Assembly (NCBI GenBank): GCA_913046035.1
Contig: CAJWSW010000002.1
Location: 4,046-68,045, forward strand
Direction of reading: 5' to 3'
From: an uncultured Alphaproteobacteria bacterium
GTDB taxonomy: Bacteria > Pseudomonadota > Alphaproteobacteria > MPNO01 > UBA830
Length of the DNA: 64,000 nucleotides
Part shown: in pieces, positions 11,639-21,492 of the stretch
Layout: every line of letters begins with the position of its first letter
Position numbering within the stretch: position 1 is the stretch's first letter
Position numbers and translations under genes: made by a program
The notes under the pieces: generated by a model
Databases searched by the model: none
Seen by the model: the letters and a program-made list of their open reading frames with translations, nothing else
Told to the model about the DNA's origin: nothing

Positions 11639-12697
11639 TCAAGTAACAGATACTGGCGCCCATAAAACATCTTCGATATTTTCCGCACCAGTAGCCAACA
11701 TCACCAGCCGGTCGACCCCAAGAGCAATACCAGCGCAATCAGGGATACCGGAATTCAGTGCTGCCAATAACGCCTCGTCAATTGGGATGGGCTCATCGCC
11801 AGCCGCAACACGATTTTTTATCGTATTTAAGAACCTTCTCCGGTGCTCATCCGCATCTGTTAGCTCGCTGTAACCGTTGGCTAATTCCAACCCGCAAACA
11901 AAGATTTCAAATCGATCAGCTACACGCGGATCGTCCGGCGAGATGCGCGCGAGCGCGGACATCGAGGCAGGATAGGAATGCAGCACTACGGGAACCTCGA
12001 TACCCAAATTGGGTTCGATACGGTCAAGAAATATACGAAAGAAAATATCATCCCAATTATCGGTCGTATCGGTGTACACACCAACCGCTTCAGCAGCGCT
12101 GCGTAGCGCGGCTGTATCTGGGTCGAGCGGATCAGGCGTTGTGGCTAGGAGGTCGATACCTGTAAACCGCTCAACCGCTTCCGCCACCGATAGAAATTCC
12201 CACGGTGCAGATAGATTGCAAATATAGTCCCGATGTCGCGCCACCGGCCCGCAAACAGCACGCACAAACTCAATAGCCTCATCCGCCAGAGAACGCCAGT
12301 CAGCGCCGGTTTGGTACCATTCAAGCATTGTAAATTCGGGGTGATGTTTCGCCGTTCGCTCACCATTACGAAAAACCCGGGCTAACTGAAAAATGCGCTG
12401 CATTCCGGCAGCTAATAGTTTCTTCATTGCGAATTCGGGCGATGTATGGAGATAAACCGACCGGGCTGCGTCCCATGGGTCCAACAAAATAGTTTTAAAC
12501 GGAGAAATATGCAGTTCTATCCCAGGGGAAACCTGCAGGGCTGACGTCTCTACTTCAACATACCCTCGGCGATCAAAAAATTCACGCACCGATTTAACGA
12601 TGTCAGCGCGGCGAACCAAATAATCTGCACGACTTTCGAACCGGTCGGGATGCCACCAGGCATTTTTAGAAATTTCAGGGGTTTCGTTTTTTGGCAT
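11639..12697 (-). CDS. epmA: EF-P (R)-beta-lysine ligase EpmA (truncated LysRS paralog, PoxA/GenX)
   Basis: Class II aaRS catalytic core without anticodon domain (MPKNETPEISKNAWWHPDRF...RGYVEVETSALQVSPG...). Start reassigned to Met at 12697; the ORF track extends to 12931. Confidence 0.85.
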   Translation of the reverse strand: MPKNETPEISKNAWWHPDRFESRADYLVRRADIVKSVREFFDRRGYVEVETSALQVSPGIELHISPFKTILLDPWDAARSVYLHTSPEFAMKKLLAAGMQRIFQLARVFRNGERTAKHHPEFTMLEWYQTGADWRSLADEAIEFVRAVCGPVARHRDYICNLSAPWEFLSVAEAVERFTGIDLLATTPDPLDPDTAALRSAAEAVGVYTDTTDNWDDIFFRIFLDRIEPNLGIEVPVVLHSYPASMSALARISPDDPRVADRFEIFVCGLELANGYSELTDADEHRRRFLNTIKNRVAAGDEPIPIDEALLAALNSGIPDCAGIALGVDRLVMLATGAENIEDVLWAPVSVT

Positions 12698-12707
12698 TAA
12701 AGCGATA

Positions 12708-13787
12708 ATGCATAATATAATGAGGTCAGTCACCTTGCCTAACATAGCAAACCTTCCCACAGTCCTGCGTACAGGGCGACAGCTTGCTGATGCGGGCCTC
12801 ATAGCCGACGACGCTGCTAAAGTGACAGACCTGATCGGCAAAAGATACAGCGTTGCGATCCCGAACCAACTTGCTACTTTGATCAACCCTGCGGATCCGA
12901 AGGATCCAATCGCGCAACAATTCATACCCAACGCAGACGAATTATTTGCGCTGGACGACGAACACGAAGATCCAATTGGTGACGACGTGCGTTCACCATT
13001 GCGGGGGCTGGTTCACCGCTATCCTGACCGCGTGTTGTTAATGCCAACACTCTCCTGTCCTGTATACTGTCGATACTGTTTTCGCCGCGAAAAAGTAGGC
13101 CGTGATGCGGCTTCTCCATCAGCTGCAGATATGGAAAACGCTATCGATTATATAGGTAATCACTCGGAAATTCGCGAGGTCATCCTGACCGGTGGCGACC
13201 CCCTATCACTTTCCGACAACCGACTTGGCGCTCTTTTACGAGAGTTGGATGAGATCCCTCATCTATCAAATCTGAGGATTCATACGCGCGTGCCGGTTGC
13301 CCTACCTAGCCGGATCACAAGTAAACTGATTGATAACTTGCAGGTAAACCTGCCAATCTGGACATTGCTCCATGTCAACCACGCACGCGAGCTTACGAAC
13401 GATGTCGCTAATGCCTGTGCGCAATTGAATCAAGGCGGCATTCCGCTGCTATCACAGTCTGTACTTTTACGGGGCGTCAATGACAATGCGAAAACGCTCT
13501 CCGAATTATTCCGGCGCCTCGTCGAGCTGAAGGTAAAACCCTACTATCTCCATCACCCGGATAGAGCTCGAGGAACATCAAGGTTCCGGCTGACCATTCG
13601 TGAGGGTCTTAATCTTGTATACAGTCTCCGCGGTCGAATTTCCGGCCTTTGTCAACCAACCTATGTTGTGGACATTCCTGGCGGTTTCGGTAAGGTTCCG
13701 ATTAGCGGTATCCGCAAAACACATGATGGTAAAAACTGGCTTCTTACGGATTTTGAGGGTCGCCAACACATCTATCAAGAGGACTGA
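12708..13787 (+). CDS. epmB: EF-P beta-lysylation protein EpmB (lysine 2,3-aminomutase, radical SAM)
   Basis: CPVYCRYCFRRE radical-SAM cluster motif, 359 aa. Divergent from epmA. Exact start uncertain; a downstream Met is possible. Confidence 0.85.
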   Translation: MHNIMRSVTLPNIANLPTVLRTGRQLADAGLIADDAAKVTDLIGKRYSVAIPNQLATLINPADPKDPIAQQFIPNADELFALDDEHEDPIGDDVRSPLRGLVHRYPDRVLLMPTLSCPVYCRYCFRREKVGRDAASPSAADMENAIDYIGNHSEIREVILTGGDPLSLSDNRLGALLRELDEIPHLSNLRIHTRVPVALPSRITSKLIDNLQVNLPIWTLLHVNHARELTNDVANACAQLNQGGIPLLSQSVLLRGVNDNAKTLSELFRRLVELKVKPYYLHHPDRARGTSRFRLTIREGLNLVYSLRGRISGLCQPTYVVDIPGGFGKVPISGIRKTHDGKNWLLTDFEGRQHIYQED

Positions 13788-13983
13788 AATGAATGCCTTA
13801 GGCATTTGTAATGGAACAGGTCTCTCGGATACTCCGCGTAATGTCATCAGAATACCAAACAACTTTTTAAGTAGCTTGGCCTGCCTGCAACGAAAGAGTT
13901 AGCCGGGCCCTCGGATTGCCTATATTTCTCCACTCTGGTAGTCTGGTCATTCATAAAAAGAGACCATTGAGCGATAAATCGGG

Positions 13984-14550
13984 ATGAAAATCCAAGCCAA
14001 TACAATTCGCCCCGGCAACGTTATCGAGCATGCCGAAAAACAGTGGACTGTGCTTAAAACGGAAATGCTGCTTCCCGGTAAGGGCAATGCATTCATTCAA
14101 GTTGAAATGCGCGATATAAAGTCAGGCAATAAAACAAACGAGCGGTTCCGAACATCGGAAACCGTCGAAAAGCTGATGGTCGAGGAAAATGATGCCACCT
14201 ACCTATATGCCGATGGTGACCAAGTTACTTTCATGGACAGCAAGAACTATGAACAGTTTACACTAAACCGGGCAAGCATTGGCGACTCTGCAGCGTTTCT
14301 TCAAGAAGGAATGATGGTCACCGCAGAATTGATCGACGGTGTCATCACTGGTGTGCGTTTACCTCAGCACGTTACAATGGAAGTTGTCGAGGCTGATCCA
14401 GTTGTAAAAGGTCAGACTGCTTCGTCATCTTACAAACCGTCAATCGTCGAAAATAACGTCCGGGTTATGGTTCCGCCCCATATTGAGGCAGGCACGCGTA
14501 TCGTTGTGAACACCGAAGATGCCACCTACGTAGAGCGCGCCAAAGACTAA
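13984..14550 (+). CDS. efp: Elongation factor P
   Basis: 188 aa, MKIQANTIRPGNVIEHAEKQWTVLKTEMLLPGKGNAFIQVEMRD with modifiable Lys in the PGKGNA loop. Confidence 0.95.
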   Translation: MKIQANTIRPGNVIEHAEKQWTVLKTEMLLPGKGNAFIQVEMRDIKSGNKTNERFRTSETVEKLMVEENDATYLYADGDQVTFMDSKNYEQFTLNRASIGDSAAFLQEGMMVTAELIDGVITGVRLPQHVTMEVVEADPVVKGQTASSSYKPSIVENNVRVMVPPHIEAGTRIVVNTEDATYVERAKD

Positions 14551-14608: not shown

Positions 14609-15430
14609 ATGTCACTGCCCACGCCTCTAATAAATGTAATGGATGCTGCCGCCCGAAAGGCGTCGCGGCGACTAGTTCGTGACTTCGGCGAAATAGAACA
14701 ATTACAGGTATCAAGAAAGGGGCCTGGAGACTTCGTCTCTGAGGCCGATCGGCGAACAGAACAAGTCTTATACGATGAATTATCTAAAGCTAGACCAGGT
14801 TTTGGTTTCTTGATGGAGGAGGGCGGCGAAATCAATGGTGAGAGCGGCGACGAACGTTGGATCGTCGATCCTATTGACGGCACGACAAATTTTTTACATG
14901 GCATCCCCCATTTTGCAATCTCGATTGGCGTTGAACGTGACGGCAATTTGATTGCAGGAGTGGTTTACGAACCTATACACGACGAATTATTCTGGGCAGA
15001 AAATGGTGCCGGTTCCTATCTTAACCGGAAGCGCCTTCGCGTTTCTGAGCGCAGCACACTAGCGGACTCTCTTATCGCTACTGGAATCCCATTTGGAAAC
15101 CGCAAAGGCAAAAAATCCTTTATCGCAATGCTGAACGCGGTGATGGAAAAGACGTCAGGCGTGCGCCGGCTCGGATCCGCGTCATTAGATCTAGCTTATG
15201 TTGCAGCCGGACGATACGAGGGGTTCTGGGAGACCGGCCTTTCACCCTGGGATATCGCGGGCGGTATCGTAATTGTGCGTGAGGCGGGCGGTTTAGTAAG
15301 TGAAATTAACGGCCGCAATTCTATGCTTTACGGCACCTCAATTATTGCAACAAATCAGCATATATATGATCCATTTAGGAAACTACTCATGGATGCCGTG
15401 CGCGATGAAAATTTAAAACTTACGGAATGA
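14609..15430 (+). CDS. suhB: Inositol monophosphatase family protein (SuhB)
   Basis: WIVDPIDGTTNFLHGIPHFAISI and DLAYVAAGRYEGFWE motifs. Confidence 0.85.
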   Translation: MSLPTPLINVMDAAARKASRRLVRDFGEIEQLQVSRKGPGDFVSEADRRTEQVLYDELSKARPGFGFLMEEGGEINGESGDERWIVDPIDGTTNFLHGIPHFAISIGVERDGNLIAGVVYEPIHDELFWAENGAGSYLNRKRLRVSERSTLADSLIATGIPFGNRKGKKSFIAMLNAVMEKTSGVRRLGSASLDLAYVAAGRYEGFWETGLSPWDIAGGIVIVREAGGLVSEINGRNSMLYGTSIIATNQHIYDPFRKLLMDAVRDENLKLTE

Positions 15431-15559
15431 TCGCTGTATTTCAACAATTTGCTTTCTTCGCAGATTATCAAATCGGTTGTCCGCAAGCACCCGCTGAGGT
15501 AACGTAGTCCACGCAGGATCATTAGACTGCCGTAGGAAACTCGCGTTTTCAAATTTAGG

Positions 15560-16489
15560 TTGAAAAATATGCTTCCGGAGTCTTCAAAAAACATCTCGCA
15601 GACTTTCACTACAACCTTTGTTTTATTCATCATTTGTTGGGCGGAATCCGTCGCCGGCCAGACGATCATTGGCAATCGCTATTCTGCCTCAGTGTCCGTT
15701 GATCTCAGCGTACTCGAGCATATTGGCTCGAAGCCCAATGTTCCAATGTTGGTGCAGCCGTCTGTGCGTTCACTTTTACAGCCCAACACCCAGCCACGTC
15801 TAATTCCTAACACACAACCACTTCTAATGCCTAACGGGCGGCTTCCAACGGCGCCGTACGTGACCACTAAAAGAAAGGTCTTGCTCTCCCCACCTGTGCC
15901 CATAACGGGCTCGTCGCAGGCAAAAATAGCGAAAAGAAAAATTAAAACAGACAAACCTTCTAAGCCCAAAGTTTCCAACATATCCCCGATTAAGCCTCGC
16001 GTCGCTTCACCCGCGTCACCCAAACCGCCACCACGCCCGCCAAAAATCACAACTGTTCCAAAATCATCCGCCCCACTGCCACTTACTGCAATTAAAGCGC
16101 CAATCAAGTCGCCAACAACTTCAAAGCAGAAAGCCGCTCAAACGGCTCTGTCCAACGCGAATGTTGTGCTGAAACGCGGACAGCAGTTTAGGTTCAATTT
16201 CGCCAACGGCTCTTCCGAAATCAGCGAAGGCGCGCAAACCCGGCTCAAGAGCATCGCCGAATCTCTAGAGCGCGACGAGGAGCTTCGCTTGCAACTGCTT
16301 GCATATGCGGGGGGGGAAGGACAAACCCTCAGCCAGGCGCGGCGAACATCGCTTTCGCGCGGGCTAGCTATTCGGTCGCTTTTACTGGATAGGGGTATTC
16401 GGAGCGATCGGATTGATATGCGCGCGCTGGGAAACAAATCCGATGGTGGGCCGCCCAACCGGGTGGACATGATCATTAAGTCGCGGTGA
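15560..16489 (+). CDS. Secreted OmpA-like peptidoglycan-binding protein with tandem PNTQP repeats and a Pro/Lys-rich linker
   Basis: Signal-peptide-like N-terminus. Repeats PNTQPRLIPNTQPLLMPNG. PKP-rich linker. C-terminal OmpA_C-like domain (...LRLQLLAYAGGEGQTLSQARRTSLSRGLAIRSLLLDRGIRSDRIDMRALG). Confidence 0.65.
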   Translation: MKNMLPESSKNISQTFTTTFVLFIICWAESVAGQTIIGNRYSASVSVDLSVLEHIGSKPNVPMLVQPSVRSLLQPNTQPRLIPNTQPLLMPNGRLPTAPYVTTKRKVLLSPPVPITGSSQAKIAKRKIKTDKPSKPKVSNISPIKPRVASPASPKPPPRPPKITTVPKSSAPLPLTAIKAPIKSPTTSKQKAAQTALSNANVVLKRGQQFRFNFANGSSEISEGAQTRLKSIAESLERDEELRLQLLAYAGGEGQTLSQARRTSLSRGLAIRSLLLDRGIRSDRIDMRALGNKSDGGPPNRVDMIIKSR

Positions 16490-16541
16490 TACGGAATATA
16501 AGCGAAATATTTCACTGAAGCCTGATGGAGTTCACCGAGCG

Positions 16542-17690
16542 ATGATAAACCCGCGGCGCTACATGATGCGTATGATCGCATTTTTGCTTGCGGTTCTAGC
16601 TGTTGCGCTGACGTTGCTACCAAGCATAAAAACCGCGTTTACATCCAACGCGGCGCTGAACGGATTAATACTTGGCGTACTAATATTAGGGGTGGGGTAC
16701 ATCTTCCGGTCCGTCTTTGTTCTGACCCGTGAAGTCGCCTGGCTGAGACATTTTCGAGCTGGGCAACCGTCGGTCTCAAGCATTCCCGAACCACGTCTTC
16801 TAGCGCCTATGGCATCGATGTTAGGAGAACGCAACGAAGGTTTCAGCCTTTCAGCTATATCGATGCGTTCTCTCCTTGACGGTGTCGGCACACGCTTAGA
16901 CGAATCCCGCGACATTTCCCGTTATATGATTGGACTCCTTATATTCCTGGGGCTATTAGGTACATTCTGGGGGTTGCTGCAAACGATCGACGCTGTCGGG
17001 GATGTGATCGCCAACCTATCTGTTGGTTCCAACAAACTAGGTCCCGTGTTCGATAGTTTAAAAACTGGATTACAGGCACCGCTAGCCGGTATGGGAACGG
17101 CATTTTCATCATCTCTCTTCGGCCTTGCCGGGTCACTTATCCTTGGTTTCCTGGAACTTCAGGCCGGGCAGGCACAGAACCGATTTTATAACGATCTTGA
17201 GGACTGGCTTTCCGGACAAACACGGCTTGCATCTGGCGCCTTCTCCGGTGACATTGACCAATCCGTCCCCGCTTACGTGCAAGCGCTTCTAGAACAGACA
17301 GCTGATAGCCTTGAGAGTTTACAGCGCACACTGCAAAACGGCGAAAAAGCCCGCATCACCGCAAATAACAACATAACAGACTTGGTCGAACGCCTCGGCA
17401 TGCTCACCAGTCAGATGACGGCCGAACATGACCTGATGGCGCAACTGGCCGAAAGTCAAACAAAACTAACGCCAGTCCTTACGCGAATCGACGAGACTCT
17501 CACAAAAATTGGTAAAGGGGGACATACCTCTGACGATATACGAACACACGTCCAAAACATTGATTCTCAGTTATCGCGATTGTGCCAAGACTCAGCTAAT
17601 GCGCGAGCAGAATTTGCCCAAGAAGTGCGCGCCGAAATACGAGTACTTTCCCGAACCCTTGCGGCAATAGCTGAAAAGGGTAGCAACTAA
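16542..17690 (+). CDS. MotA/TolQ/ExbB-family proton-channel protein with about 190-aa C-terminal coiled-coil tail
   Basis: 4 predicted TMs (2+2). Channel-like TM3/TM4 (GLLIFLGLLGTFWGLLQTI; LAGMGTAFSSSLFGLAGSLILGF). Long heptad-rich tail. Confidence 0.7.
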   Translation: MINPRRYMMRMIAFLLAVLAVALTLLPSIKTAFTSNAALNGLILGVLILGVGYIFRSVFVLTREVAWLRHFRAGQPSVSSIPEPRLLAPMASMLGERNEGFSLSAISMRSLLDGVGTRLDESRDISRYMIGLLIFLGLLGTFWGLLQTIDAVGDVIANLSVGSNKLGPVFDSLKTGLQAPLAGMGTAFSSSLFGLAGSLILGFLELQAGQAQNRFYNDLEDWLSGQTRLASGAFSGDIDQSVPAYVQALLEQTADSLESLQRTLQNGEKARITANNNITDLVERLGMLTSQMTAEHDLMAQLAESQTKLTPVLTRIDETLTKIGKGGHTSDDIRTHVQNIDSQLSRLCQDSANARAEFAQEVRAEIRVLSRTLAAIAEKGSN

Positions 17691-17732
17691 ATGCCGCTCC
17701 CAACAAAATTCTACCACGACAACAGGTAAAGA

Positions 17733-19052
17733 ATGCCCGGGCCCATACGACGACAGAGACAGACATTTGATATCTGGCCTGGCTTCGTGGACGCTCTGTC
17801 AGCCCTGTTAATCGTCATTATTTTCCTATTAATGGTGTTTACACTTTCTCAATTTTTCTTGGGAGACATTCTCTCCGGACGCAATCAGGCACTTGAACGG
17901 GTCAACCAAAAACTGACGGAACTTTCAAAGGTGCTTTCCCTCGAACAGGAAACAAATTTAAGCTTATCCAAGAAAATCACACAGCTCACCACTGATCTGG
18001 AGGCGTCGACCGCATCCCGCGAAAAGATGTCAGTTCAATTAGCGGAATTGATAACACAACGGGACGCACTGCAGAAAAAACTTACCGACGCAAGGCAGAT
18101 TATCGGCAACGATAAGAAGAAGATTGAAACCCAACTTGCAGAAATTATTCAAATTAATAGGGATATTACGGCTCTGAAGGATGTTCGTGCAGCATTGGAA
18201 AAAAAAGTATCCAAACTTGCAGGAACTATAGCCGAACGAGACAGATCTTTGGGATCGTTGCGCGACAGGTCGAAAGAGTTAGAGACGAGAATGGCCGATG
18301 CAAAGAACCGTACCGCGCTAGCACAGAAAGAAATCGAAAAAAAAGAACTTACTATCCGAGAGCTGAGCGCCCAAGCACAGAGAATTGGCGATGACTTGAC
18401 CAAAGAACAACGGGCGAGCCAAGACCTACGCAGGAAAATCACTGTACTTAACACCCAACTGGTAGCATTGCGTTTGCAACTTACCCGTTTAAATGCCGCA
18501 CTAGAGGCGTCGGAGACAAGGGTTGCTGCTCAAGATGTCCAAATTGTGAGCCTAGGAAAGCGCCTTAACGAAGCGCTGGCGAGCAAAGTCGAAGAACTTG
18601 CGCGTTACCGATCCGAGTTTTTTGGACGACTTCGCGAGGCCCTAGGAAAACGCAGCGGCGTCCGCATCGTTGGCGACCGTTTTGTATTACAGTCAGAAGT
18701 GCTTTTTTCGACAGGGTCAGCTGATCTAAATCCAATCGGTCAAGAACAAATCGACAAGCTTGCTGCCACGCTTCAAGAAATCTCTGATCGAATTCCAGAC
18801 GATCTAAATTGGGTTCTGCGGGTTGACGGGCACACCGATAGTCGGCCGATTAGCACCCCAAAGTTTCCATCAAACTGGGAACTATCCGCGGCACGCGCGA
18901 TATCGGTCGTCAAAGCCCTGATCAATCGAGGTTTGCAGGCGGATCGACTGGTGGCGGCTGGTTTCGGCGAATTTCAGCCACTGGATGCACGGAATGACGA
19001 AGTTGCTTATCTGCGAAATCGCCGTATAGAGTTCAAACTGACCCAGCGTTAG
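17733..19052 (+). CDS. MotB/OmpA-family protein: N-terminal TM with conserved Asp, about 270-aa coiled coil, C-terminal peptidoglycan-binding domain
   Basis: FDIWPGFVDALSALLIVIIFLLMVF plug/TM like MotB/TolR. Continuous coiled coil residues about 45-320. C-terminal OmpA_C motif ...NRRIEFKL. Confidence 0.75.
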   Translation: MPGPIRRQRQTFDIWPGFVDALSALLIVIIFLLMVFTLSQFFLGDILSGRNQALERVNQKLTELSKVLSLEQETNLSLSKKITQLTTDLEASTASREKMSVQLAELITQRDALQKKLTDARQIIGNDKKKIETQLAEIIQINRDITALKDVRAALEKKVSKLAGTIAERDRSLGSLRDRSKELETRMADAKNRTALAQKEIEKKELTIRELSAQAQRIGDDLTKEQRASQDLRRKITVLNTQLVALRLQLTRLNAALEASETRVAAQDVQIVSLGKRLNEALASKVEELARYRSEFFGRLREALGKRSGVRIVGDRFVLQSEVLFSTGSADLNPIGQEQIDKLAATLQEISDRIPDDLNWVLRVDGHTDSRPISTPKFPSNWELSAARAISVVKALINRGLQADRLVAAGFGEFQPLDARNDEVAYLRNRRIEFKLTQR

Positions 19053-19136
19053 TTAGGTACTCAACCGACTCAATATTTCCCTATACTTAACGAAGCCTCT
19101 GCGGCAACTCCCAATGATCAATTCGTATTACCGAAC

Positions 19137-19361
19137 TTAATCAATGCCCAGATCTTTAAACCTGTTGTTGAATTTAGCGACCTGTCCTGCGGTATCGACT
19201 AAACGCTGGGATCCTCCAGTCCATGCTGGATGAGACTTGGAGTCAATATCAAGCTTCAACGTATCGCCAGGTGCGCCCCAGGTCGATCGGGTCGAGTAGG
19301 TTGTACCGTCAGTCATTACCACTTCTATCTCGTGATAATCCGGATGAATCTCTTTTTTCAA
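19137..19361 (-). CDS. rpmE: 50S ribosomal protein L31 (Cys-less, zinc-independent type)
   Basis: [29 protein letters not shown]...FNNRFK, 74 aa. No CxxC motifs. Confidence 0.85.
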
Positions 19362-19519
19362 CGCACTTCTCCTGCAACGTTGCGCGTTATAGGAGACGAA
19401 GACAACCTTTGCAACAACACATTCGCCCGGAAAGCATTCTGAGTAGGAACAAATTGGGAATACACCTCGTATTGAGGATTCACGCTAGAGACGACGGTAA
19501 TGCTGTTTACCTAATATAG

Positions 19520-19819
19520 CTAGTTTTTAAACAGAGCCTCCACACCACTCCGATGTGCTTCCTTTTTAGCAATTTCGGCACGCACCCTTTCGATCTCTTC
19601 CGCCAACTCGGTTATGTATTCGTTCAACTCCTCGATAGACATCGGATCGAGATCCTGTTTCGGTTTTTGGATATTTTGAGGCAGATCGTCGTTGATATCC
19701 AAGTCATTACTCCAGTTAATGTGGTTTTGTCGATTAAGGTTCCTACTTGCCAGTCTGCCGCTAAGGCGATAGACCTGCAACAAAGGTTTAAAAAAATCGA
19801 GTCGATCTTTAGATGTCAT
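19520..19819 (-). CDS. DUF1192-family small protein (alphaproteobacterial). True start may be the internal Met (MSIEELNEY...)
   Basis: C-terminal 40 aa SIEELNEYITELAEEIERVRAEIAKKEAHRSGVEALFK matches the DUF1192 pattern. Confidence 0.5.
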   Translation of the reverse strand: MTSKDRLDFFKPLLQVYRLSGRLASRNLNRQNHINWSNDLDINDDLPQNIQKPKQDLDPMSIEELNEYITELAEEIERVRAEIAKKEAHRSGVEALFKN

Positions 19820-20871: not shown

Positions 20872-21492
20872 ATGGCCAATCAAGCAACTGAAAATGCAAA
20901 ACCGCTTATGCCCAAAGCCACGGCAGTGTGGCTTATCGAAAATACCGGCCTGACTTTCCGCCAAATTGGTGCTTTTTGCGGACTACACGAATTAGAGGTG
21001 CAAAGTATTGCGGACGACGAAGTCGCAATCGGGATGGTCGGCTACGACCCAATAGTCAATGGACAGCTTACAAAAGAAGAAATTGAACGCTGTGAAACGG
21101 ACCCAGCCGAACGCCTCATAATGGCGAAAACAAATGTACCACGGCCAGCCACCCGCACAAAGGGACCAAAATACACTCCCGTTTCCCGGCGCGGCGACAA
21201 GCCGGATGCGATCGCCTGGCTGGTTAAACACTATTCCAACCTCACTGATGCTCAAATATCTCGCTTAATCGGCACGACTAAACCGACTATTAAGGCTATT
21301 CGCGACCGATCACACTGGAATATGAACAATATAACTGCACGAGACCCAGTAGGGTTGGGTCTATGCAACCGCCAAGACTTGGACAAAGAGGTACTTAAGG
21401 CTGGATATTCATCGACTCTCGAAGCACCACCAGTAGACGAGGAAAAACTGAGCAAAACATCTGGTGTTCCAATGCCAGAATTCAAGCTATAA
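20872..21492 (+). CDS. DUF1013-family protein (conserved in alphaproteobacteria)
   Basis: 206 aa, ...PKATAVWLIENTGLTFRQIGAFCGLHELEVQ... duplicated HTH-like pattern typical of DUF1013. Confidence 0.65.
   Translation: MANQATENAKPLMPKATAVWLIENTGLTFRQIGAFCGLHELEVQSIADDEVAIGMVGYDPIVNGQLTKEEIERCETDPAERLIMAKTNVPRPATRTKGPKYTPVSRRGDKPDAIAWLVKHYSNLTDAQISRLIGTTKPTIKAIRDRSHWNMNNITARDPVGLGLCNRQDLDKEVLKAGYSSTLEAPPVDEEKLSKTSGVPMPEFKL

What the first reader, a model, noticed from the sequence alone, without database searches (positions are those of the whole stretch)
15560..19052. Orphan stator-like three-gene module with extreme coiled-coil extensions, a paralog of the Tol-Pal machine in the same window
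Three co-directional, tightly spaced genes:
1. A secreted OmpA-like peptidoglycan-binding protein with tandem PNTQP repeats and a PKP-rich linker.
2. A MotA/TolQ/ExbB-type channel with a 2+2 TM layout and a 190-aa cytoplasmic coiled-coil tail.
3. A MotB/TolR-type partner carrying the proton-relay Asp (FVDALSALLIVIIFLL), about 270 residues of uninterrupted coiled coil, and a C-terminal OmpA_C peptidoglycan anchor.
The genuine tolQRAB operon sits at 848-2956, so this is a second, different ion-driven motor. No flagellar, TonB-box or ZorC/D/E partner genes are present, so it is not a flagellar stator, an ExbBD-TonB system or a canonical Zorya defence system. The ZorA-like long cytoplasmic tail on the A subunit, combined with a ruler-like coiled coil on the B subunit, is unusual. 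If extended as a single helix the coil would be about 40 nm.
Candidate functions are an envelope-spanning mechanotransducer, an envelope-integrity system or a defence sensor.
Basis: partly seen in the sequence, partly recalled or inferred. Interest (0 to 1): 0.65.

Follow-up and report, generated by a model that had tools for sequence, protein, structure and literature searches.

The report
Conserved alphaproteobacterial stator-like motor with rod
These three genes encode a proton-channel "stator" complex that is not flagellar, not Tol/Ton and not a Zorya phage-defence system; it belongs to a widespread but essentially unstudied core-genome family of Alphaproteobacteria whose cell-wall-anchoring subunit carries a 20-70 nm coiled-coil rod.

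Summary
Three co-directional genes encode:
- g1 (15569-16489): a secreted OmpA-like protein.
- g2 (16542-17690): a 4-TM MotA/ZorA-like A subunit.
- g3 (17733-19052): a MotB-like B subunit with an invariant TM Asp20, a roughly 230-260-residue coiled coil in one heptad register, and a canonical peptidoglycan-binding domain.

The module is not an orphan. g3 passes NCBIfam NF006543 (PRK09039, "peptidoglycan-binding protein"). In 80 genomes the order efp-suhB-(g1)-A-B-…-rpmE is conserved, and Sinorhizobium meliloti shares the suhB-A-B-…-rpmE part.

No flagellar, Zorya-effector or TonB/TolA partner is nearby, and no defence genes flank it. Similarity to the window's own TolQ is only at superfamily level.

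New here: the B rod varies from about 150 to 470 residues between species, almost always in steps of 7. It is therefore a genuine, continuous coiled coil, longer than the 9 nm IM-to-wall gap cited for E. coli.

Komagataeibacter hansenii "motA/motB", from a non-flagellate genus, very likely belong to this family. Overexpression there lengthens cells and GFP fusions are polar.

Best reading: a housekeeping 5:2 proton-driven envelope motor of unknown output. It is a new variant of a known kind.

The parts
15569..16489 (+). g1: secreted OmpA-like accessory protein (306 aa from ATG 15569; TTG 15560 is the mechanical ORF start)
   Evidence: ORF. The closest homologues are 306 aa. An AGG lies 10 nt upstream of the ATG. 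Pfam OmpA scores 31.7 bits, above the 27.2 cutoff. A homologue sits immediately upstream of the A gene in 60 of 80 related loci.
15569..15655 (+). g1 signal peptide (about residues 1-29; the cleavage site before QT is inferred)
   Evidence: There is a single hydrophobic segment. Homologues align with A-x-A/G followed by Q-T. The cleavage site was inferred from the alignment and not run through a predictor.
15656..15736 (+). g1 conserved N-terminal motif, QT-IG-x5-SVSVDLSVL-x2-G
   Evidence: The motif is conserved in homologues from many genomes, with V42, V44, V48, L49 and G53 invariant or nearly so. Its function is unknown.
15737..16171 (+). g1 Pro/Lys-rich variable linker, including the 8-residue PNTQP tandem duplication
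   Evidence: PNTQP occurs at residues 72 and 80. The linker is highly variable in length and sequence between homologues. The duplication is absent from the closest homologues P0395 and P0396.
16172..16486 (+). g1 C-terminal OmpA-like domain, with AYAGG in place of the usual GHTD
   Evidence: Pfam OmpA matches residues 214-293. The block LRLQLLAYAGG…SQARRxSLSRxLAxR…RVD is conserved. The usual Asp of the GHTD motif is replaced, so peptidoglycan binding is uncertain; this is read from the sequence.
16542..17690 (+). g2: A subunit (382 aa), 4-TM MotA/ZorA-like channel protein
   Evidence: PADLOC ZorA1 gives E=6.6e-17 and ZorA3 gives E=4.6e-10. Pfam MotA_ExbB scores 18.9 bits, below the 22.9 cutoff. 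The best Foldseek PDB matches are TolQ, ExbB and ZorA chains. There are more than 8000 homologues, the closest 120 being 63-98% identical and about 380 aa.
16926..17159 (+). g2 TM3, periplasmic loop and TM4 core (residues 129-206), with invariant LGLLGT141F-G and GMGTAFS189-S191LFGL
   Evidence: This segment is the most conserved membrane part, with mean column identity 0.86. It is also the region matched by the ZorA, MotA_ExbB and TolQ profiles.
17160..17687 (+). g2 cytoplasmic tail (residues 207-382): post-TM4 helix, disordered linker 227-243, then helices 244-323 and 329-381
   Evidence: Secondary structure and pLDDT are from AF2. The heptad register breaks at P311 and G324-327. Column identity is 0.97 for 207-226 and 0.77-0.79 for the two tail helices.
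17733..19052 (+). g3: B subunit (439 aa), member of NCBIfam NF006543 / PRK09039
   Evidence: NF006543 scores 448.8 bits against a cutoff of 305. A 100% identical protein, P0121, is on record. An orthologue follows the A gene in 77 of 80 loci.
17790..17792 (+). g3 Asp20 codon, the universal proton-binding Asp of B subunits
   Evidence: W15-P16-G17-F18-V19-D20 are invariant in 55 homologues. The role is assigned by analogy with ZorB Asp26 and MotB Asp (PMC11946911).
17862..18644 (+). g3 periplasmic coiled-coil rod (about residues 44-304)
   Evidence: One heptad register and no Pro. 27 of 33 conserved hydrophobic residues fall on a/d positions. AF2 predicts helices 16-187 and 194-304. Between-species indels are multiples of 7.
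18645..19049 (+). g3 MotB-type peptidoglycan-binding (OmpA_C) domain
   Evidence: Pfam OmpA scores 58.4 bits. The best PDB sequence matches are MotS, MotB and PomB PG-binding domains at E=4e-16 to 1e-10. GHTD, NWELS-AR and NRRIEFK are invariant.

Best explanation
g2 and g3 encode the A and B subunits of a non-flagellar, non-Zorya, non-Tol/Ton member of the MotAB/ExbBD/TolQR/ZorAB superfamily of ion-driven motors. The family is a core-genome module of Alphaproteobacteria whose B subunit is the PRK09039 "peptidoglycan-binding protein".

Proposed mechanism (inferred by homology, not shown):
1. Five A subunits surround two B transmembrane helices.
2. Protons pass via B Asp20 and the polar A residues Thr141 and Ser189/Ser191.
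3. The two B chains leave the membrane as one continuous parallel two-stranded coiled coil. Here it is about 34-38 nm long; across the family it ranges from about 22 to 70 nm.
4. The rod ends in a MotB-type domain that grips peptidoglycan.
5. With B held by the wall, proton flow turns the A ring.
6. The highly conserved cytoplasmic tail of A (a linker plus two long helices per subunit) is the output, acting on a partner that is still unknown.
7. g1 is a secreted OmpA-like accessory protein found with the pair in most, but not all, lineages.

The physiological role is most likely in cell-envelope or cell-shape housekeeping, such as elongation, division or pole-related processes. Swimming or phage defence is less likely.
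For: Superfamily assignment:
- ZorA HMM hits for g2, E=6.6e-17 to 1e-9.
- All top fold matches are TolQ, ExbB or ZorA chains.
- The B TM carries an invariant Asp.
- A and B are adjacent in 77 of 80 loci.

B family membership:
- NF006543 scores 448.8 bits against a cutoff of 305.

Peptidoglycan anchor:
- MotB/PomB/MotS PG-binding domains match at E down to 4e-16.
- The binding motifs are invariant.

Continuous coil:
- A single heptad register and no Pro.
- a/d enrichment, p=3e-10.
- The Asp-to-YRSEFF spacing is 173-492 residues in 72 genomes. 51 of 72 fall in one mod-7 class, and 16 more are offset by a 4-residue stutter.
- Indels lie at only two sites, both in the N-terminal half of the rod, so a fixed hairpin is unlikely.

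Core-genome, non-mobile, non-defence status:
- efp-suhB-(g1)-A-B-…-rpmE synteny holds in 80 genomes, and S. meliloti shares suhB-A-B-ABC-rpmE without g1.
- No phage hits, and the only "plasmid" hits are five 3.5-4.6-Mb Sinorhizobium/Shinella replicons of chromosome size.
- No PADLOC hits in the flanking genes.

Output through the tail:
- The tail is as conserved as the channel, with column identity 0.77-0.97.

Function hint from Komagataeibacter hansenii "motA/motB" (348 and 321 aa):
- The genus has no flagella. Overexpression gives elongated cells and more colony spreading, GFP fusions are polar, and disruptants are viable (PMC6570709; PMC7347698).
- Primer-encoded termini fit this family: MTRPTTY against MTHPRRY, and …IEFRLTDR* against …IEFKLTQR*.
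Against: - Neither stoichiometry, ion flow, rotation nor PG binding was tested.
- Pfam MotA_ExbB is below threshold for g2, and no solved structure matches by sequence profile.
- AF2 confidence is moderate (pLDDT 68.5 and 72.6), and the models are monomers.
- The AF2 monomer of g3 folds back at residues 188-193. I argue this is an artefact, but it is not excluded.
- A rod of 22-70 nm greatly exceeds the roughly 9 nm IM-to-PG distance quoted for E. coli (PMC11946911). The geometry of a simple wall-anchored stator is therefore unexplained.
- No output partner is identifiable from gene neighbourhood.
- K. hansenii orthology rests on short primer-encoded peptides, protein lengths and the paper's BLAST table, not on full sequences. 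The overexpression phenotypes are indirect.
Confidence: 0.6

Rival explanations
1. A Tol/Ton-like trans-envelope force transducer. The B rod stands up, passes through the wall and delivers PMF-derived force or rotation to the outer periplasm or outer membrane, as TolA, TonB or GldM do. g1 (conserved N-terminal strand motif, Pro-rich spacer, OmpA-like domain) would be the outer partner.
For: - The shortest rods, about 150 residues or 22 nm, already exceed the IM-to-PG gap and approach periplasm-spanning length (9 nm gap from PMC11946911).
- g1 has a TonB-like Pro-rich spacer and a conserved N-terminal strand-like motif.
- 5:2 motors with periplasm-spanning partners are an established theme (PMC12204202).
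Against: - The B tip is a fully conserved MotB-type PG-binding domain, not an outer-membrane-protein-binding domain.
- Rods of 60-70 nm cannot stand upright in a periplasm.
- g1 linker length does not co-vary with rod length, rho=0.04, n=31.
- g1 is absent next to the pair in 20 of 80 loci and in S. meliloti.
- No TolA/TonB-type gene is adjacent.
Confidence: 0.2
2. A mainly structural inner-membrane-to-wall tether or spacer. The channel is vestigial or only gates assembly, and the coiled coil acts as a flexible leash that limits or organises membrane-wall distance or lateral position.
For: - Rod length is evolutionarily labile: 439 to 523 aa within relatives at least 50% identical, and 173-492 residues overall.
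- This fits a minimum-length or leash role better than a precise mechanical part.
Against: - The proton-path residues are invariant across the family: B Asp20, and A Thr141, Ser189 and Ser191.
- The A cytoplasmic tail is strongly conserved. A passive tether would not require either.
Confidence: 0.1
3. A Zorya-like phage-defence sensor whose effectors are encoded elsewhere or are unknown.
For: - The best HMM matches of g2 are ZorA models, and g3 matches ZorB3 at E=6e-26.
- Like ZorA, the A subunit has a helical cytoplasmic tail.
Against: - NCBIfam ZorA models score 15-18 bits against cutoffs of 100-500.
- No ZorC/D/E/F/G or any PADLOC hit lies in the flanks.
- Housekeeping synteny is fixed across many genera rather than showing island-like patchiness.
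- The tail is 176 aa, whereas the E. coli ZorA tail is residues 223-729 (PMC11946911).
- ZorB has no linker, whereas g3 has a rod of about 260 residues.
Confidence: 0.06
4. An extra flagellar stator (MotCD- or MotS-like) misplaced from the flagellar regulon.
For: - Public annotation calls homologues "flagellar motor protein MotA" or "chemotaxis protein MotB".
- The g3 C-terminal domain matches the MotD and MotS models at 94-105 bits.
Against: - All flagellar MotB equivalog scores are far below their cutoffs of 250-300.
- No flagellar MotA model hits g2 at E<=0.1.
- There is no plug or flexible linker; a rigid coil takes its place.
- No flagellar genes occur in the window or in 80 related loci.
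- The probable orthologues are kept by non-flagellate Komagataeibacter (PMC6570709).
Confidence: 0.03

Closest known systems
Zorya ZorAB (ZorA5B2 proton-driven motor; PDB 8qyd, 8vvn)
   Same: The g2 TM core scores best against ZorA HMMs and ZorA chains are among the best fold matches. Both systems have a B subunit with a TM Asp and a dimeric PG-binding domain, and both A subunits have a helical cytoplasmic tail.
   Different: - ZorA has 3 TM helices and a roughly 500-residue, 70 nm tail. g2 has 4 TM helices and a 176-residue tail split into two helices.
- The ZorB PG-binding domain is fused to the TM helix without a linker, whereas g3 has a rod of about 260 residues.
- There are no ZorC/D/E/F/G genes nearby.
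- The context is core-genome synteny rather than a defence island.
Flagellar stators MotAB / PomAB / MotCD / MotPS
   Same: Both have a 4-TM A-subunit topology. The g3 C-terminal domain is most similar by sequence to MotB/MotS/PomB PG-binding domains. Homologues carry the same public annotation.
   Different: - The cytoplasmic TM2-TM3 loop is short (66 aa).
- No flagellar model passes its cutoff.
- There is no plug or flexible linker.
- There is no flagellar gene context.
- The family appears to be retained in aflagellate Komagataeibacter.
TolQRA-Pal and ExbBD-TonB
   Same: All belong to the same 5:2 motor superfamily, and TolQ and ExbB are the best Foldseek matches. A long periplasmic helical element (TolA domain II) and an OmpA-like partner (Pal) are conceptual parallels to the g3 rod and to g1.
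   Different: - g3 has no ExbD/TolR domain and carries its own OmpA_C domain.
- There is no separate TolA/TonB protein.
- g1 has no lipobox.
- The true tolQ-tolR-tolA-tolB operon is elsewhere in the window.
- Only 29 profile columns align with the window's TolQ.
GldLM / PorLM (gliding and T9SS motor)
   Same: In both, the B-type subunit itself carries a long periplasmic extension. This comparison rests on my own knowledge of the GldLM literature and on the list of 5:2 motors in PMC12204202.
   Different: The GldM periplasmic part is made of globular domains reaching an outer-membrane complex. The g3 periplasmic part is a plain coiled coil ending in a PG-binding domain. No sequence similarity was detected.
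Komagataeibacter hansenii "MotA/MotB" (Jacek et al., PMC6570709)
   Same: These are very probably the same family. They form an adjacent gene pair of 348 and 321 aa in a non-flagellate alphaproteobacterium, and the primer-encoded N- and C-termini match the family. The MotB BLAST hits are to Rhizobium and Rhodospirillum "OmpA/MotB" proteins at 46-48% identity over 95-98% coverage.
   Different: The B subunit is shorter, with a coil of roughly 130 residues. The paper interprets the genes as motility genes. Orthology could not be verified with full sequences here.
NCBIfam NF006543 / PRK09039 "peptidoglycan-binding protein"
   Same: g3 is a member: 448.8 bits against a cutoff of 305.
   Different: The model is 350 positions long and g3 matches it in two stretches, because g3 has about 14 extra heptads in the coil. 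The family name carries no functional information.

Membership tests
5:2 ion-driven motor superfamily (MotA/ExbB/TolQ/ZorA + MotB/ExbD/TolR/ZorB) | A subunit with the conserved two-helix channel core (G-x-x-G-T motif helix plus polar partner helix) | tested here: met
   PADLOC ZorA1 E=6.6e-17 and ZorA3 E=4.6e-10 on residues 123-206. All top Foldseek matches are TolQ, ExbB or ZorA. LGLLGT141F-G is invariant. Caveat: Pfam MotA_ExbB scores 18.9, below its 22.9 gathering cutoff.
5:2 ion-driven motor superfamily (MotA/ExbB/TolQ/ZorA + MotB/ExbD/TolR/ZorB) | B subunit with a single N-terminal TM helix carrying a conserved Asp | tested here: met
   One TM segment at 11-49. D20 is invariant in 55 sequences.
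5:2 ion-driven motor superfamily (MotA/ExbB/TolQ/ZorA + MotB/ExbD/TolR/ZorB) | A and B genes adjacent and co-directional | tested here: met
   The gap is 42 bp in the window. B follows A in 77 of 80 loci.
5:2 ion-driven motor superfamily (MotA/ExbB/TolQ/ZorA + MotB/ExbD/TolR/ZorB) | A5B2 stoichiometry and ion-driven rotation | not testable with these tools
   Only single-chain AF2 was available. This needs AF-Multimer, cryo-EM or biophysics.
Flagellar stator (MotAB/PomAB) | Passes a curated flagellar MotA or MotB equivalog model | tested here: not met
   g3 scores 43-105 bits against cutoffs of 250-301. g2 has no flagellar MotA hit at E<=0.1.
Flagellar stator (MotAB/PomAB) | B subunit with plug helix and flexible linker between TM and PG-binding domain | tested here: not met
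   The TM helix runs straight into a heptad-regular, Pro-free coil of about 260 residues.
Flagellar stator (MotAB/PomAB) | Genomic or regulatory association with flagellar genes | tested here: not met
   The neighbours are epmA/epmB-like genes, efp, suhB-like, rpmE, DUF1192, a qor-like dehydrogenase and TrcR. The same housekeeping neighbours recur in 80 loci.
Zorya anti-phage system | ZorA passing curated ZorA models, with a long (hundreds of residues) single tail | tested here: not met
   NCBIfam ZorA_4 scores 17.6 against 500 and ZorA_2 scores 15 against 100. The tail is 176 aa, with a disordered linker and a break at 324-328. The E. coli ZorA tail is residues 223-729.
Zorya anti-phage system | Adjacent effector genes (zorC/zorD, zorE, or zorF/zorG) | tested here: not met
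   Seven flanking proteins have no PADLOC hit. g1 has none either.
Zorya anti-phage system | ZorB PG-binding domain fused to the TM helix without a linker | tested here: not met
   About 260 helical residues separate the TM helix from the PG-binding domain. The ZorB description is from PMC11946911.
Tol-Pal / Ton systems | B subunit of the ExbD/TolR family (PF02472) | tested here: not met
   g3 has no ExbD hit. The window's real TolR scores 104.9 bits.
Tol-Pal / Ton systems | Separate TolA/TonB-type transducer gene in the cluster | tested here: not met
   No such gene lies between suhB and rpmE. g1 has only a cleavable signal-type segment.
NCBIfam NF006543 (PRK09039.1-2) peptidoglycan-binding protein | Whole-protein score above the curated cutoff | tested here: met
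   g3 scores 448.8 bits against a cutoff of 305. It is also above cutoff for NF006545 and NF006544.
OmpA-like PG-binding domain (PF00691) | Score above the gathering cutoff, and conserved PG-contact motifs (GHTD / N-x-x-LS-x-x-RA / NRR) | tested here: met
   g3 scores 58.4 bits with all motifs invariant.
OmpA-like PG-binding domain (PF00691) | The same criteria applied to g1 | tested here: inconclusive
   g1 passes the cutoff (31.7 against 27.2). However, the family-wide motif is AYAGG rather than GHTD, so the Asp is missing, while the Arg-containing helix SLSR-LA-R and the RVD motif are kept. Binding cannot be judged from sequence alone.

The most novel reading that the evidence does not exclude
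This is the founding example of a third, alphaproteobacteria-wide, housekeeping class of PMF-driven envelope motor alongside Tol and Ton. In this reading the B dimer is a heptad-exact periplasmic coiled-coil shaft or tether of 22-70 nm between the channel and the cell wall, and the rotating A ring signals or does work in the cytoplasm through a conserved ten-helix tail. The function would be linked to cell elongation, division or pole identity.
Probability: 0.35. Interest if true: 0.8.

Novelty: new variant of a known kind. Interest (0 to 1): 0.56.

Why it matters
- 5:2 ion-driven motors are known to power flagella, Ton uptake, Tol-dependent division, gliding/T9SS and Zorya defence. Each newly characterised class has revealed a new way to couple the proton gradient to work.
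- This family is present in many alphaproteobacterial orders. Named or annotated examples seen here include Rhodospirillales-type lineages, Sinorhizobium, Shinella, Hyphomicrobiaceae, Sphingomonadales, Elioraea and probably Komagataeibacter.
- It sits in a fixed housekeeping locus.
- It has an architecture with no studied counterpart: a rigid coiled-coil rod built into the wall-anchoring subunit.
- It is currently mislabelled as flagellar MotA/MotB, or as a bare "peptidoglycan-binding protein".
- It is directly testable in tractable hosts. In S. meliloti the genes are inferred to be SMc03993 and SMc03992. K. hansenii already has viable mutants.
- The heptad-quantised length variation offers a natural experiment on whether rod length or rod phase matters.

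Tried and rejected
1. I asked whether the S. meliloti orthologues are among the Rgs polar-growth factors. They are not named in the paper or its held supplements. Only the neighbouring Sel1 gene is RgsF (SMc03995), confirmed by mapping a published primer.
2. The CenKR regulon paper (Rhodobacter) does not mention MotA, MotB or OmpA.
3. Literature searches for PRK09039, for stator-like or MotAB-like proteins in Alphaproteobacteria, and for surveys of 5:2 motors found no description of this family. The MotAB evolution paper describes heterogeneous non-flagellar "GIT" groups but nothing matching this architecture.
4. A sequence-profile search of the A family against all PDB chains gave nothing significant. 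A single-sequence search gave nothing either.
5. The AF2 monomer of g3 folds into a hairpin at residues 188-193. I rejected this as the native state for three reasons:
   - the heptad register is unbroken across the turn;
   - the turn has pLDDT below 50;
   - natural insertions of 7-63 residues occur only at positions 115 and 170, in one "arm", without compensation in the other.
6. I tested whether the g1 Pro-rich linker length tracks B rod length, which would suggest both span the same gap. It does not: rho=0.04, n=31.
7. Promoter and terminator scans of 15300-19450 were no better than shuffles.
8. A fold search against AFDB50, intended to find named orthologues in model organisms, was unavailable.
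9. The g2 Pfam "Apolipoprotein" hit (26.9 bits against a cutoff of 90) and the SMC/Rad50/JetC hits are generic coiled-coil similarity and carry no meaning.

Full report
**1. What is in the sequence**

Three co-directional ORFs lie between a suhB-type inositol monophosphatase gene (14609-15430) and a convergent rpmE (19137-19361). They are g1 at 15560/15569-16489, g2 at 16542-17690 and g3 at 17733-19052, separated by gaps of 52 and 42 bp.

Simple promoter and terminator scans were uninformative.

The closest g1 homologues are 306 aa, and an AGG sits 10 nt upstream of ATG 15569. The real g1 start is therefore probably 15569.

The rest of the window is ordinary chromosome:
- ruvCAB-ybgC-tolQ-tolR, an ORF in the tolA position (no Pfam hit) and tolB, all on the minus strand at the left edge;
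- epmA-like, epmB-like and efp genes;
- DUF1192, a quinone-oxidoreductase-like gene, TrcR and DUF2390;
- glycolate-oxidase-like genes, pyruvate kinase and hydantoinases.

No flagellar or defence genes were found.

**2. The three proteins**

*g1.* It has one N-terminal hydrophobic segment, consistent with a signal peptide and with no lipobox. Next comes a short motif conserved in many genomes (QT-IG…SVSVDLSVL..G), then a Pro/Lys-rich linker that varies greatly in length, then a conserved C-terminal domain of about 100 residues. That domain passes Pfam OmpA at 31.7 bits against a cutoff of 27.2. The family-wide motif is AYAGG rather than GHTD, so peptidoglycan binding is uncertain. The "PNTQP repeat" is an 8-residue duplication absent from the nearest homologues.

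*g2.* It has four hydrophobic helices in a 2+2 layout with a Lys/Arg-rich N-terminus, which is the MotA-type topology.
- Pfam MotA_ExbB is sub-threshold at 18.9 bits against 22.9.
- PADLOC ZorA models hit the TM3-TM4 core and part of the tail, at E=6.6e-17 and 4.6e-10.
- The AF2 model (pLDDT 68.5) finds TolQ, ExbB and ZorA chains as its best PDB matches, with target-normalised TM-scores of 0.43-0.55. MotA ranks lower.
- Neither the sequence nor a family profile matches any solved chain.
- The window's own TolQ aligns over only 29 columns.
- The 176-residue tail is predicted as a very conserved post-TM4 helix (207-226, column identity 0.97), a disordered linker (227-243), and two long helices (244-323 and 329-381). 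The two helices are as conserved as the channel.

*g3.* It has a short basic N-terminus and one TM helix carrying the invariant WPGFVD20 motif. From the membrane exit, a helix runs to about residue 304. It contains no proline, one heptad register holds from about residue 36 to about 265, and 27 of 33 conserved aliphatic residues lie on a/d positions (p=3e-10). The C-terminal domain is a canonical MotB-type peptidoglycan-binding domain with GHTD, NWELS-AR and NRRIEFK invariant. PDB MotS, MotB and PomB match at E=4e-16 to 1e-10. g3 passes the NCBIfam equivalog NF006543 (PRK09039, "peptidoglycan-binding protein") with 448.8 bits against a cutoff of 305.

**3. It is a large, conserved family**

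The closest 120 A proteins are all about 380 aa and 63-98% identical.
- Against 1.84 billion representative proteins, g2 has 570 clusters at E<1e-30 and 1593 at E<1e-10.
The best 80 are Rhodospirillales-type and other Alphaproteobacteria: Nitrospirillum, Kiloniella, Elioraea, Nisaea, Defluviicoccus and Dongiaceae.
- Cluster members are also labelled Hyphomicrobiaceae and Sphingomonadales.
- In these 80 loci B follows A in 77 and g1 precedes A in 60. suhB (64), efp (59) and rpmE (50) flank them.
- S. meliloti has the same suhB-A(368 aa)-B(342 aa)-ABC transporter-rpmE-DUF1465-DUF1192 arrangement without g1. Its B is 44% identical to g3 over 300 residues.
- The family is absent from the phage collection. 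In the plasmid collection it occurs only on five 3.5-4.6-Mb Sinorhizobium/Shinella replicons of chromosome size.

This is core-genome behaviour, not that of a defence island.

**4. The rod**

Among the 120 closest B homologues, the lengths are 439, 446, 453, 460, 467, 481, 495, 516 and 523 aa. 116 of 120 differ from 439 by a multiple of 7.

Across 72 diverse genomes the distance from the TM Asp to the YRSEFF motif, which opens the PG-binding domain, ranges from 173 to 492 residues.
- 51 of 72 fall in one mod-7 class.
- 16 more are offset by 4, which is the classical coiled-coil "stutter".
- 19 of 31 distinct lengths share one class (corrected p≈1.5e-8).

One B subunit of 625 aa was read directly. 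Insertions sit at two hot spots, after residues 115 and 170.

I conclude three things:
- The coil is genuine and is kept continuous by selection.
- It is most simply a parallel two-stranded rod made by the two B chains. The AF2 monomer hairpin is not compatible with one-sided insertions of 7-63 residues.
- Its length, roughly 22-70 nm at 0.148 nm per residue and about 34-38 nm here, is not a fixed ruler.

Every member exceeds the roughly 9 nm inner-membrane-to-peptidoglycan distance cited for E. coli (PMC11946911). The rod must therefore tilt, lie in the periplasm or cross the wall. This is unexplained. The A subunit, by contrast, is length-invariant at 378-387 aa.

**5. Functional hints**

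K. hansenii "motA" (348 aa) and "motB" (321 aa) were studied as motility genes, although the paper states that the genus lacks flagella.
- Overexpression elongated cells and increased colony spreading.
- C-terminal GFP fusions were polar in short cells and bipolar in longer cells.
- Disruption mutants are viable and make denser cellulose (PMC6570709; PMC7347698).

The published primers encode MTRPTTY… for MotA, against MTHPRRY in this family. For MotB they encode MARRSRR… and …IEFRLTDR*, against …IEFKLTQR* in this family. The paper's BLAST table links MotB to Rhizobium and Rhodospirillum "OmpA/MotB" proteins at 46-48% identity with near-full coverage. I regard orthology as very likely but unproven.

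In S. meliloti the pair lies two genes downstream of rgsF, a polar-growth factor. The pair itself does not appear among the Rgs proteins. A ChvI DNA-binding screen recovered a fragment inside SMc03993 (PMC3687685). By gene numbering SMc03993 should be the A gene; this is inferred and weak.

**6. Mechanism (inferred)**

By homology with solved MotAB, ExbBD, TolQR and ZorAB complexes, five A subunits should enclose two B helices. Protons would pass via Asp20 and the invariant Thr141/Ser189/Ser191. If B is fixed to the wall, the A ring turns.

The unusual parts are the rigid rod in place of the MotB plug and linker (or of ZorB's direct fusion), and a compact, highly conserved A tail that probably forms the output surface.

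I favour a housekeeping envelope or shape role, with confidence of about 0.6 for the overall picture and lower confidence for the physiological role. The rivals are a Tol/Ton/GldM-like trans-envelope transducer with g1 as outer partner (0.2), a mainly structural tether (0.1), a Zorya-like sensor (0.06) and a flagellar stator (0.03).

**7. Comparison and novelty**

Membership of the 5:2 motor superfamily is met at HMM, fold, motif and gene-order level. Membership of the flagellar-stator, Zorya and Tol/Ton families each fails on tested defining features. g3 is a bona fide member of the uncharacterised PRK09039 family.

My literature searches found no paper that describes this architecture or assigns it a function.

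I rate it a new variant of a known kind. It is of moderate-to-good interest because it is widespread, conserved, mis-annotated and experimentally accessible. It is not categorically new, and no function was established here.

Noticed in passing
window 11639-14550: An epmA-like gene (class II tRNA-synthetase-like, minus strand), an epmB-like gene (radical SAM / lysine 2,3-aminomutase C-terminal domain) and efp sit together just upstream of suhB. This looks like a complete EF-P beta-lysylation set. The same trio recurs in only about 19-22 of the 80 related loci, whereas efp-suhB recurs in about 60. The mechanical epmA ORF (TTG at 12931) overlaps epmB and is probably too long.
   Followed up: partly
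L081 4268-5413 (S. meliloti CP090106.1) relative to L081 6770-8907: The Sel1/TPR polar-growth factor RgsF (SMc03995) lies two genes upstream of the S. meliloti A/B pair; its identity was confirmed by mapping a published primer. The record itself is a 3.7-Mb replicon deposited as "plasmid pSymB".
   Followed up: partly
L047 8597-10429 (minus strand); L081 8894-10708 (minus strand); absent from window 19052-19137: In many genomes, including Kiloniella and S. meliloti, a roughly 600-aa ABC exporter-type gene sits convergently between the B gene and rpmE. It is missing in this window and in its closest relatives L001-L005.
   Followed up: no
L042 7179-9056; also L037, L043, L067: Some B subunits are about 590-660 aa, with visibly repetitive coiled-coil segments (a 625-aa example was read). 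These correspond to the 627-position NCBIfam subfamily NF006542. Rod expansion appears to proceed by tandem duplication of heptad-multiple blocks.
   Followed up: partly
window 20872-21492 and 19520-19819: TrcR (PF06242, transcriptional cell-cycle regulator, 211.8 bits) and DUF1192 lie just downstream. S. meliloti has DUF1465 and DUF1192 in the equivalent place. The locus therefore sits among alphaproteobacteria-specific genes.
   Followed up: no
window 15779-15826 (g1 residues 71-86): The PNTQP "repeat" is a single 8-residue tandem duplication (QPNTQPRL / IPNTQPLL). It is absent from g1 homologues that are 60-70% identical, so it is a recent local event and not a family feature.
   Followed up: yes
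P0242, P0282, P0290, P0364 (representative hits to g2): A few A-subunit relatives are 574-614 aa, with 39-44% identity over the first roughly 350 residues and two or three matched stretches. They may carry longer or duplicated tails, intermediate towards ZorA-like lengths.
   Followed up: no
window 16138-16623 (-), 15679-16107 (-), 18149-18454 (-): Long antisense ORFs of 101-161 aa overlap g1 and g3. Nothing suggests they are genes; they are likely by-products of the composition of the sense strand.
   Followed up: no
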